DNA from: a virus
Lineage: Duplodnaviria > Heunggongvirae > Uroviricota > Caudoviricetes
DNA: 43,322 nucleotides
IMG/VR virus record: IMGVR_UViG_638341087_000022
Strand: one strand, 5' to 3'
This document shows, one piece after another, positions 34,910 through 35,252 of the stretch (the first letter of the stretch is position 1; every line of letters starts with the position of its first letter). The translations under genes were made by a program, and so were the position numbers. Below the pieces are notes generated by a model, which was not told where the DNA came from, did not search any database, and saw only the letters and a program-made list of their open reading frames with translations.

Positions 34910-34940
34910 TCACTGTCGTCATTTCGTTAAGGAAGAAGTT

Positions 34941-35189
34941 ATGAATGAAAAAGTTATTGGAGCAAAAGCCATTTAGACTCCAAAGGTTTTTGCGCTTGTT
35001 TACCTGGTAATTGGCATTTTCCTCGTTTTTTCTGTTGTCTCAATGAATTTCACGGCGATTACGATATCGGTGGTAAGTGCATTGCTTTTACGTGTGCTTT
35101 ATGAGTTCCTAATGAACTCATTCAAGGCGACTGAGCATCTTTACAGGATCGCCGAATCTCTTGACCGTAATGGATCCAGCGATAAATAG
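34941..35189 (+). pseudogene. Small hydrophobic protein gene interrupted by an in-frame amber codon
   Basis: ATG at 34941 with AAGGAAGAAG RBS; TAG at 34974-34976 after 11 codons; frame then continues through a hydrophobic 70-codon stretch to TAG at 35187. Confidence 0.3.
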
Positions 35190-35214
35190 ATAAGTCATTT
35201 CAGTGCATATGTAA

Positions 35215-35237
35215 ACCGCCGACATGGCGGTTTTTTT
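35215..35237 (+). terminator. Intrinsic terminator
   Basis: ACCGCC-GACAT-GGCGGT followed by TTTTTTT. Confidence 0.6.
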
Positions 35238-35252
35238 ATTTCCGGAGGCGTG

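What the first reader, a model, noticed from the sequence alone, without database searches (positions are those of the whole stretch)
34930..35250. Interrupted small membrane-protein gene and terminator inside the tail operon
Seen: an ATG with an excellent RBS (AAGGAAGAAG) opens a frame that hits TAG after 11 codons and then continues through a strongly hydrophobic 70-codon stretch, followed by a strong terminator immediately before the DNA circulation gene. Inference: a decayed or conditionally expressed moron (amber read-through or restart at Met35043), or a sequencing error; the terminator in mid-operon implies read-through regulation.
Basis: seen in the sequence. Interest (0 to 1): 0.4.

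Follow-up and report, generated by a model that had tools for sequence, protein, structure and literature searches.

The report
Amber-inactivated membrane-protein moron in prophage tail operon
A small add-on gene for a two-helix membrane protein, wedged between two tail genes of an E. coli-type prophage, has been switched off by a single-letter stop mutation that is real and widespread; this is an ordinary decaying accessory gene, and its terminator is explained by the phage's own antitermination protein.

Summary
ATG 34941 follows the RBS AAGGAAGAAG, and TAG at 34974-34976 ends the frame after 11 codons. Seventy more in-frame codons run to the stop at 35187-35189. A strong intrinsic terminator (35213-35240) lies 16 nt before the DNA-circulation gene.

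It is a moron-type cassette: a low-GC ORF plus terminator, absent from otherwise near-identical prophages. The ORF encodes an 82-aa two-helix membrane protein of a divergent DUF4282 branch (PHROG 12129).

Homologues have Trp (TGG) at codon 12, so the window carries a one-step nonsense allele. It is not a sequencing error: 21 of 22 insert-bearing complete E. coli genomes and most related viral contigs share TAG. Two derived alleles reopen the frame: TAG->TAT, and an extra T combined with an ATG 4 nt downstream. Further changes within the TAG clade are all non-synonymous or destroy the stop, which fits decay.

The mid-operon terminator needs no special mechanism. The window encodes a Q antiterminator, four other strong sense-strand terminators lie in the late region, and the layout copies the HK97 gp15 moron.

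The function of the intact protein is unknown. Its recurrent position right after tape-measure genes suggests an injection-blocking (superinfection exclusion) role, by inference only.

The parts
34839..34867 (+). Candidate sigma-70 promoter of the cassette (ATGATA-17-TATAAT), inside the last codons of the tape measure gene, 74 nt before the ATG
   Evidence: 10 of 12 matches, the only + strand site in 30000-40000. It is identical in intact-allele loci. It is weakened in the Citrobacter type (TATAAC) and absent in the insert-less OW1E2 (ACGGGA..TACAGC). This is a consensus match only; function was not shown.
34929..34938 (+). Shine-Dalgarno region AAGGAAGAAG, 7 nt (from the AGGA core) before ATG 34941 and 11 nt before ATG 34945
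   Evidence: identical in all close relatives.
34941..35189 (+). Interrupted 82-codon ORF for a two-helix membrane protein (divergent DUF4282 / PHROG 12129). Codon 12 is TAG at 34974-34976, where homologues have TGG. Codon 6 is ATT (34956-34958; F6I), seen only in this window.
   Evidence: The AF2 model is a hairpin of helices 3-34 and 37-76 with pLDDT 77. GC is 0.40, against 0.49-0.54 in the flanks.
34945..35010 (+). The +1 frame 21-codon ORF (MKKLLEQKPFRLQRFLRLFTW*) from an ATG 4 nt downstream. In relatives with T6 instead of T5 at 34987-34991 this frame rejoins the main frame and gives an 81-aa protein that bypasses the TAG.
   Evidence: the accidental +1 translation; P0006; DNA alignment.
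35043..35189 (+). The longest ORF still open in this allele (48 aa: second helix plus the conserved C-terminal motif). No Shine-Dalgarno sequence lies upstream.
   Evidence: Some gene finders call it as a protein (P0011).
35213..35240 (+). Intrinsic terminator (AAACCGCCG-ACA-TGGCGGTTT overlapping a run of seven T). It lies 24 nt after the ORF stop, and 16 nt separate the end of the T-run from the next gene's ATG.
   Evidence: It is kept in the insert-less OW1E2 with a different loop, and in the Citrobacter type with a different stem sequence.
32981..34909 (+). Tape measure protein gene (642 aa) with a transglycosylase-like segment (aa ~393-541). Its last ~180 nt are low in GC, like the cassette.
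   Evidence: (phrog_2276, E=3e-152).
35253..36656 (+). DNA-circulation (Mu gp43/N-like) baseplate gene, the first gene after the terminator
   Evidence: PF07157, E=3e-30; annotation of relatives.
14743..15552 (+). Q antiterminator gene. Its product would let late transcription read through the terminator at 35213 and the others.
   Evidence: PF03589, E=1e-38; phrog_127, E=1e-94. A terminator follows at 16093-16107.

Best explanation
The locus is a moron-type accessory cassette between the tape measure gene and the DNA-circulation gene. The host element is a lambdoid-regulated prophage with a Mu-like contractile tail.

The cassette consists of a low-GC ORF for an 82-aa two-helix inner-membrane protein (a divergent DUF4282 / PHROG 12129 member), an intrinsic terminator, and probably a weak promoter embedded in the tape measure gene's 3' end.

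In this window the ORF is dead or nearly so. Codon 12, Trp (TGG) in the ancestral form, is TAG by one G-to-A transition. A second change, F6I, hits a residue that is invariant in the close family alignment. The TAG allele is a genuine, common variant that has spread on several backbones.

During lytic growth the phage's Q protein makes RNA polymerase ignore the terminator, so the baseplate genes are transcribed. In the lysogen the terminator would stop any transcript that starts at the cassette promoter.

Inferred, not shown: the intact protein is made from the prophage, inserts into the inner membrane, and interferes with tape-measure-mediated genome injection by incoming related phages (superinfection exclusion).
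For: Shown here:
- An intact ORF sits at the identical position in relatives: TGG in L009-L011, L014 and L030; TAT in NCTC9040 and L015-L017.
- Trp12 is kept in homologues down to 51% identity.
- In complete E. coli genomes, 21 carry TAG, 1 carries TAT, and 11 lack the insert.
- Across 42 classified loci the counts are 29 TAG, 5 TGG, 4 TAT and 4 TAG+T6.
- All TAG, TAT and T6 alleles share the derived N59 and S79, so they form one clade. TAT and T6 each differ from the main TAG haplotype only by the frame-restoring change.
- Further changes within the TAG clade are F6I, F27Y, F27C, T64S and stop83Q, with no synonymous change. TGG alleles differ from each other by 4 synonymous changes.
- Moron hallmarks: presence/absence between near-identical prophages; GC 0.40 against 0.49-0.54; a terminator; a promoter-like site.
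- A distant homologue occupies the same slot on the opposite strand.
- 14 of 15 family contexts have a terminator within 115 nt of the stop, and all are 7-24 GC points below their flanks.
- The Q antiterminator is in the window. Four other strong sense-strand terminators lie in the late region, three within ~16 nt of a gene end and one after the tRNA-Thr downstream of Q.
- HK97 gp15 has the same ORF-terminator-next-tail-gene layout.

For the inferred function:
- The protein is predicted to be a two-helix membrane hairpin.
- Family members sit right after tape measure genes in Mu-like, GF-2, E217-like and siphovirus-type tails.
- HK97 gp15 is a small inner-membrane moron product next to the tape measure gene. 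It blocks genome injection, with specificity residing in the incoming tail (PMC3594210).
Against: - No expression data exist. The promoter is only a consensus match in AT-rich DNA.
- The terminator is also present in the insert-less OW1E2, so it may belong to the backbone rather than to the cassette.
- The high frequency of TAG on several backbones could mean the allele is tolerated, favoured or still partly functional.
- The decay argument rests on only 4-5 substitutions. F27Y also occurs in intact alleles, so it may have arrived by recombination.
- For function: there is no homology to gp15, no hit in PADLOC, and no informative fold match.
- Two family members are chromosomal, outside phages.
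- In E217-like phages the gene is tightly packed and co-oriented with tail genes, which would also fit a late-expressed role.
Confidence: 0.8

Rival explanations
1. The TAG allele is still functional. It would yield either a 48-aa single-helix protein by initiation at Met35043, which keeps the most conserved motif (LRVLYEFLM-SFKATEHLYRIAE), or a little full-length protein by natural UAG read-through. The stop would then tune dosage rather than kill the gene.
For: - TAG is the commonest allele and sits on several different backbones.
- The conserved C-terminal half is still open.
- Gene finders call the 48-aa ORF on about 40 contigs.
Against: - There is no Shine-Dalgarno sequence before Met35043, which lies 66 nt after the stop.
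- No suppressor tRNA is in the window.
- Within the TAG clade the invariant T64 is changed, the natural stop is lost in two loci, and no synonymous change is seen.
- Two separate frame-restoring alleles exist, and the TAT product is on 134 contigs. That is easier to explain if TAG is a loss of function.
Confidence: 0.12
2. The small protein is a regular late gene of the tail module with a role in the phage's own cycle, for example assisting the tape measure protein at the membrane or preventing re-injection into the lysing cell. On this reading it is not a prophage-expressed moron.
For: - The position directly after the tape measure gene is conserved across unrelated tail types.
- In some phages the gap is only 8-28 nt and the gene is co-oriented with the tail genes.
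Against: - It is absent from near-identical prophages and carries a nonsense codon in most carriers.
- It lies on the opposite strand in L048, and it has chromosomal homologues outside phages.
- Low GC and its own terminator appear almost everywhere.
- Only 2 of 50,697 cultured phage records carry it.
Confidence: 0.1
3. The terminator is a backbone attenuator. It would set the ratio of sheath/tube/tape-measure transcripts to baseplate transcripts by partial termination, independently of the cassette.
For: - Hairpin plus T-run is kept in the insert-less OW1E2 and, with a different stem sequence, in the Citrobacter type. It always lies 10-16 nt before the DNA-circulation RBS.
Against: - A Q antiterminator is encoded upstream.
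- Comparable terminators follow other accessory genes in the same late region.
- Terminators follow family members in unrelated phages, and HK97 has the same layout.
- OW1E2 may simply have lost the ORF and kept the terminator.
Confidence: 0.15
4. The TAG is a sequencing or assembly error in this window.
For: None beyond the a priori possibility. The F6I change at 34956 is unique to this window and could be an error or a private mutation.
Against: The identical TAG is in 21 complete E. coli genomes from unrelated sources, in Citrobacter youngae, and in about 24 IMG/VR contigs.
Confidence: 0.01

Closest known systems
HK97 gene 15 moron (superinfection exclusion protein gp15; Juhala et al. 2000; Cumby et al. 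2012, as summarised in PMC3594210)
   Same: - Both are small membrane-protein ORFs inserted in the tail operon of a Q-regulated lambdoid phage, next to the tape measure gene.
- Both are followed at once by an intrinsic terminator, with the next tail gene 12-16 nt later.
- Both are add-ons absent from relatives.
   Different: - There is no sequence relationship (no BLASTP alignment; hhalign probability 0.6%).
- gp15 is YebO-like with one predicted helix and lies upstream of the tape measure gene. This protein is a DUF4282-like two-helix hairpin and lies downstream of it.
- Here the gene carries a nonsense codon, and its function is untested.
Pfam DUF4282 (PF14110) / PHROG 12129, uncharacterised small membrane proteins
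   Same: - The intact protein matches phrog_12129 (E=6e-11).
- 23 of 24 family relatives match DUF4282, with a best E-value of 1e-11.
- Shared motifs are (F/L)-x-x-(L/M/I)-(I/W/L)-TPK-(I/V) and R-(V/I)-x-(F/Y)-E...FK-x-x-E-(Y/H)-L-x-R-I-(A/C).
   Different: - The window's own subfamily scores below Pfam's gathering threshold (22.1 and 20.9 bits against 27).
- No function or literature exists for the family.
Tape-measure-directed entry blocks, e.g. TP-J34 Ltp lipoprotein (from my own knowledge) and the membrane nuclease SNIPE (PMC13190303)
   Same: These are the functional precedent that membrane-located proteins can act on the tape measure protein at the moment of genome injection.
   Different: They are unrelated proteins, and no interaction was tested here. 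The resemblance is a lead only.

Membership tests
Phage moron (Juhala/Hendrix definition, as restated in PMC3594210) | Extra DNA between two genes that are adjacent in a related phage | tested here: met
   In OW1E2 and 10 other E. coli prophages the tape measure stop is followed 67 nt later by the DNA-circulation start, with no ORF between.
Phage moron | Base composition different from the neighbouring genes | tested here: met
   ORF GC is 0.40, against 0.49 (tape measure body), 0.54 (DNA-circulation gene) and 0.51 (whole window). The same holds in all 15 family contexts.
Phage moron | Own terminator | tested here: met
   Hairpin plus T7 lies 24 nt after the stop. 14 of 15 family contexts have one. 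Caveat: the terminator is also present in the insert-less variant.
Phage moron | Own promoter, expression from the repressed prophage | tested here: inconclusive
   A promoter-like site at 34839-34867 matches 10 of 12 positions and is absent in the insert-less variant. Such sites lie upstream in 9 of 14 contexts against about 0.9 expected. The opposite-strand copy in L048 must have its own promoter. No expression data are available.
Pfam DUF4282 (PF14110) | Score at or above the gathering threshold (27 bits) | tested here: not met
   The scores are 22.1 bits (Y12 form) and 20.9 bits (P0001). Relatives found by profile search do match (23 of 24 at E<=0.01). It is therefore best called a divergent branch, not a certified member.
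PHROG 12129 | Significant full-length HMM match | tested here: met
   E=6.2e-11, residues 6-77 against profile positions 2-77 of 79.
HK97 gp15 / YebO family | Sequence homology | tested here: not met
   No BLASTP alignment; hhalign probability 0.6%; no YebO hit in Pfam at E<=10.
Superinfection exclusion proteins acting at DNA entry | Inner-membrane location | tested here: inconclusive
   Two hydrophobic helices are seen in the hydropathy profile and in the AF2 hairpin (pLDDT 77). This is prediction only.
Superinfection exclusion proteins acting at DNA entry | Blocks genome injection of a superinfecting phage without blocking adsorption | not testable with these tools
   Needs plating and DNA-entry assays.
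Known anti-phage defence systems (PADLOC-DB) | Match to a defence-protein model | tested here: not met
   No match at E<=10.
Programmed stop-codon read-through / recoding | The stop codon is conserved among homologues with constrained sequence downstream, or a suppressor tRNA is supplied | tested here: not met
   Homologues have TGG, TAT or CTA at that codon. Changes within the TAG clade are all non-synonymous. The only tRNA in the window is tRNA-Thr(TGT).
Lambdoid Q-antiterminated late operon | Q antiterminator gene upstream of co-oriented late genes that contain intrinsic terminators | tested here: met
   Q lies at 14743-15552. Sense-strand terminators are at 16093, 17641, 18892, 20688 and 35213. 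The Q utilisation site and late promoter were not mapped.

The most novel reading that the evidence does not exclude
DUF4282-type two-helix proteins are a widespread, so far unrecognised family of prophage-expressed cassettes (promoter, ORF, terminator). They lodge next to tape measure genes in many unrelated tail types and block tape-measure-mediated genome entry of competing phages.

The series TGG -> TAG -> TAT, or TAG plus T6 with the alternative start, seen in Enterobacteriaceae would record repeated loss and regain of this function under shifting costs and benefits.
Probability: 0.25. Interest if true: 0.55.

Novelty: new member of a known kind. Interest (0 to 1): 0.3.

Why it matters
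For this window it matters little: it is an inactivated accessory gene, and its terminator is explained by ordinary lambdoid antitermination.

Two by-products have some value.

1. An uncharacterised family (DUF4282 / PHROG 12129) is shown to travel as a low-GC ORF-plus-terminator unit. It sits almost always directly after the tape measure gene, in Mu-like, E217-like, GF-2-like and siphovirus tails. That gives a concrete, testable candidate for a new entry-exclusion family.

2. The natural allele series offers ready-made isogenic material for such a test: intact, amber, a missense revertant, and a frameshift-plus-alternative-start revertant.

Tried and rejected
- NCBIfam and PADLOC scans of the intact protein gave no match.
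- Foldseek of the AF2 hairpin against PDB and BFVD gave nothing at E<=0.001. A bare helical hairpin is not discriminating.
- A literature search for 'DUF4282' found 0 papers.
- The scan of genome contigs returned a single locus, Citrobacter youngae.
- tblastn of three family members against 50,697 phage records found only Edwardsiella GF-2 and Klebsiella Kp4864-1, neither with a functional annotation.
- Rfam on both strands of 34600-35500 gave only sub-threshold matches to the terminator.
- I first read the terminator as backbone rather than cassette, because OW1E2 keeps it. One search, which found terminators after family genes in unrelated phages, makes that undecidable.
- I first read the junction at about 34727 as the left edge of the cassette. 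One search shows the whole tape measure gene is a patchwork against OW1E2, so the junction is only one of several.
- A canonical -1 slippery heptamer that could rejoin the +1 frame in the T5 allele was looked for by eye in G-GTT-TTT-G and not found.
- Trees of the flanks show mosaicism, so they cannot establish how many times the TAT allele arose.

Full report
**1. What is in the sequence**

The region lies between the tape measure gene (32981-34909, 642 aa; phrog_2276 E=3e-152) and the DNA-circulation gene (ATG 35253 to 36656; PF07157 E=3e-30). The features, in order, are these.

- A purine-rich ribosome-binding site, AAGGAAGAAG (34929-34938), is followed by ATG 34941.
- The frame reads MNEKVIGAKAI, then stops at TAG (34974-34976).
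- It continues for 70 codons to TAG 35187-35189. The first 45 or so of these codons are strongly hydrophobic.
- The only start codon after the internal stop is Met 35043, which opens a 48-aa ORF. No Shine-Dalgarno sequence precedes it.
- A terminator lies 24 nt after the ORF: nine stem pairs, five of them G-C, and a run of seven T. It is the strongest + strand site between 30000 and 40000.
- Sixteen nt after the T-run comes the ATG of the DNA-circulation gene, preceded by GGAGG.

**2. It is a real gene that is intact elsewhere**

- The 801 bases around the locus match 33 complete E. coli chromosomes.
- Twenty-two carry the whole insert. Eleven match only from the terminator onwards.
- In E. 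coli OW1E2 the tape measure stop is followed 67 nt later by the DNA-circulation start, with no ORF between but with the terminator present.
- In E. coli NCTC9040 the same 249 bases are annotated as an 82-aa hypothetical protein (WP_023157309.1). The only difference from the common allele in about 390 aligned bases is TAT (Tyr) in place of TAG.
- In ECONIH4 and MLI104K1, which have TAG, the gap is left unannotated.

**3. The ancestral codon is TGG**

- A protein search found intact 79-83-aa homologues in Enterobacter, Citrobacter and E. coli.
- Nearly all have Trp at position 12, down to 51% identity. One Citrobacter form has Leu and phage GF-2 has Ile.
- The DNA of loci that encode these proteins shows ATT TGG ACT where the window has ATT TAG ACT.
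- The window's stop is thus one G-to-A transition from the ancestral codon.

**4. The stop is not an error, and it is the common allele**

- Allele-specific 55-nt queries found TAG in 21 complete E. coli genomes and TAT in one.
- A script classified 42 loci gathered from E. coli genomes, IMG/VR viral contigs and other assemblies:

| Allele | Loci |
|---|---|
| TAG, T5 | 29 |
| TGG | 5 |
| TAT | 4 |
| TAG + T6 (extra T in the run at 34987-34991) | 4 |

- These loci are a convenience sample and are not all independent. They come from unrelated strains and sources, including Citrobacter youngae.

**5. Two derived alleles reopen the frame**

- All TAG, TAT and T6 alleles share two derived residues, N59 and S79, where TGG alleles have T59 and mostly P79. 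They therefore form one clade.
- The TAT haplotype equals the main TAG haplotype plus one G-to-T change.
- TAT is two steps from TGG and one step from TAG. The most parsimonious order is TGG, then TAG, then TAT.
- The T6 haplotype equals the main TAG haplotype plus one T.
- Its predicted product (P0006, 81 aa, on 19 contigs of Enterobacter cloacae and E. asburiae) begins MKKFLEQKPFRLQRF. That is the +1 frame read from the ATG 4 nt downstream (34945), and it runs through TTT-AGA, across the TAG.
- The extra T then brings that frame back into the main frame just before the first hydrophobic helix.
- In both repaired alleles the only difference from the dead allele is the change that restores a long ORF.
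- The Tyr12 protein is recorded on 134 contigs.
- This suggests selection to regain the protein. It is not proof: only about 1% of random substitutions would do this, but few events were sampled.

**6. Signs of decay in the TAG clade**

- Apart from the stop, the changes seen within the TAG clade are F6I, F27Y, F27C, T64S and loss of the natural stop (TAG to CAG) in two loci. None is synonymous.
- F6I is found in this window only, and F6 is invariant in the alignment of close family members.
- T64 is also invariant in that alignment.
- Two TGG alleles, by contrast, differ by four synonymous changes among about ten.
- The numbers are small, and F27Y also occurs in intact alleles. The pattern still fits relaxed constraint better than purifying selection.
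- The window contains no suppressor tRNA; its only tRNA is tRNA-Thr(TGT).

**7. It is a moron-type cassette**

- The insert is present or absent between near-identical prophages.
- Its GC content is 0.40, against 0.49 for the tape measure body, 0.54 for the DNA-circulation gene and 0.51 for the window.
- A promoter-like site (ATGATA-17-TATAAT, 10 of 12) lies 74 nt upstream, inside the tape measure gene's last codons. The insert-less variant lacks it.
- A distant homologue (P0017) occupies the same slot between tape measure and DNA-circulation genes on the opposite strand. It must therefore be transcribed on its own.
- Across 15 contexts of family members, 14 have a terminator within 115 nt of the stop, mostly within 5-45 nt. 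All are 7-24 GC points below their flanks.
- Promoter-like sites lie within 160 nt upstream in 9 of 14 contexts, against about 0.9 expected from the loci's own background. These stretches are AT-rich, which inflates such matches.
- Whether the terminator at 35213 came with the ORF or was already in the backbone cannot be decided. OW1E2 has the same stem without the ORF, and the Citrobacter type has a hairpin of different sequence at the same place.

**8. The mid-operon terminator is explained by the phage's regulation**

- The closest annotated relative is the ECONIH4 prophage, integrated next to tRNA-Pro and yejM. It has a lambda-like head and lysis module, a Mu-like contractile tail and an annotated Q antiterminator.
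- The window has its own Q gene at 14743-15552 (PF03589 E=1e-38; phrog_127 E=1e-94). RusA-like and YbcO-like genes lie just upstream of it.
- Downstream of Q come a tRNA-Thr and a terminator at 16093.
- All late genes are co-oriented.
- Four more strong sense-strand terminators lie in the late region: 16093 after the tRNA-Thr, and 17641, 18892 and 20688 each within about 16 nt of a gene end.
- It is established knowledge for lambdoid phages that Q-modified RNA polymerase reads through such terminators.
- The HK97 record shows the same arrangement at the first moron ever described: gene 15 (8203-8391), a putative terminator (8398-8422), then the tape measure gene at 8435.
- The terminator here therefore needs no special read-through mechanism.

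**9. What the protein is**

- The intact protein matches PHROG 12129, of unknown function (E=6e-11).
- It matches Pfam DUF4282 below threshold: 22.1 bits against a cut-off of 27.
- An exhaustive profile search of 1.8 billion representative proteins found only 24 clusters. Twenty-three of the 24 aligned members match DUF4282, with a best E-value of 1e-11.
- The family shares an N-terminal TPK motif, two variable hydrophobic helices and a strongly conserved segment, R-V-x-F/Y-E ... F-K-x-x-E-Y/H-L-x-R-I-A.
- AlphaFold2 gives a two-helix hairpin, helices 3-34 and 37-76, with mean pLDDT 77.
- Fold searches were uninformative.
- There is no match in NCBIfam or PADLOC.
- No paper in the library mentions DUF4282.

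**10. A recurrent link to the tape measure gene**

Besides the Mu-like tails of the close relatives, family members sit as follows.

| Position of the family gene | Where seen |
|---|---|
| Directly after the tape-measure-like 'lytic tail protein' | Edwardsiella phage GF-2 |
| Directly after a TMP_3 tape measure gene | siphovirus-type and E217-like tail modules |
| Two small ORFs after a TMP_3 gene | one locus |
| Inside a baseplate cluster | one locus |
| In chromosomal, non-phage surroundings | two subfamilies |

This linkage holds across unrelated tail types and across tape measure families that share no Pfam domain. It is the main hint to function.

**11. Proposed mechanism and its status**

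- Shown: the anatomy of the cassette, the nonsense mutation and its population distribution, the Q gene, and the other terminators.
- Inferred: expression from the prophage, inner-membrane insertion as a hairpin, and interference with tape-measure-dependent genome entry by superinfecting relatives.
- The inference rests on analogy with HK97 gp15. That protein is a small inner-membrane moron product next to the tape measure gene. It blocks injection, with specificity residing in the incoming phage's tail (PMC3594210).
- It also rests on the finding that the tape measure protein is what membrane-located defences contact during injection (PMC13190303).
- gp15 is not a homologue.
- I put about 0.3 on the exclusion function and about 0.8 on the rest.
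- In this window the function, whatever it is, is most likely lost.

**12. Verdict**

This is an ordinary finding for a temperate phage: a decaying accessory gene with a standard terminator in a Q-antiterminated operon. The sequencing-error and read-through ideas do not.

The modest interest lies in two things. The natural allele series is tidy, and the cassette is an unstudied, tape-measure-linked DUF4282 family that could be tested as a new entry-exclusion family.

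Noticed in passing
window 34612-34749: There is a tandem duplication of a 69-nt (23-codon) unit near the 3' end of the tape measure gene, with 71% identity between the copies. Relatives with a 619-aa tape measure protein (MLI104K1, Citrobacter L012) have a single unit, and the window's protein has 642 aa. This length polymorphism of the tail ruler protein might change tail length by about one tube ring.
   Followed up: partly
window 32981-34909 against L004 1043-2971: The tape measure gene is a patchwork relative to E. coli OW1E2. Blocks of 99-100% identity (33681-34380, plus 94% at 34581-34680) alternate with blocks of 56-77%. 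This indicates repeated recombination inside the gene.
   Followed up: partly
window 34157-34603 (tape measure residues ~393-541): The tape measure protein carries a segment matching endolysin and 'tail injection transglycosylase' PHROGs (phrog_873 E=2e-39; phrog_7182 E=9e-15). The GF-2 neighbour of the homologous small gene is annotated as a 'lytic tail protein'.
   Followed up: no
window 15963-16037 and 16093-16107: A tRNA-Thr(TGT) gene sits between the Q antiterminator gene and a strong terminator. From my own knowledge, this placement resembles the tRNA genes downstream of the late promoter in Stx phages.
   Followed up: no
window 17221-17660, 17835-18911, 20285-20705: Three other late-region genes are each followed within a few bases by a strong sense-strand terminator. 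They are a 134-aa protein of unknown function, a 350-aa ORF corresponding to the DNA methyltransferase annotated in ECONIH4, and a 134-aa ORF corresponding to its DUF2513 protein. These are probably further moron-like units.
   Followed up: partly
window 32561-32988: A 92-aa tail assembly chaperone ORF (Phage_TAC_7 in relatives) is followed by a 44-aa ORF in another frame that overlaps the tape measure start. This layout is expected for the programmed frameshift pair of tail chaperones. The slippery site was not looked for.
   Followed up: no
L045 3344-3928: In one diverged relative the same slot holds an additional 194-codon ORF between the tape measure gene and the small membrane-protein gene. 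The slot may collect other cargo.
   Followed up: no
L003 (E. coli NCTC9040), second place in the record: NCTC9040 carries two copies of the TAT-allele region. A frameshift-scrambled version of the protein (P0007) comes from the same chromosome. Its tape measure gene and GP46 gene are also split or frameshifted, so this assembly may contain indel errors. The TAT allele itself is confirmed on 134 other contigs.
   Followed up: partly
L054/L055 and L057/L058: In E217-like tail modules the family gene is followed by a Dit-like gene, a Pam3_gp18-like gene and then directly by holin and lysis genes. L057 also has a Phd/Fic-like toxin-antitoxin pair. This is an unusual order for a contractile-tail module and was not examined.
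   Followed up: no
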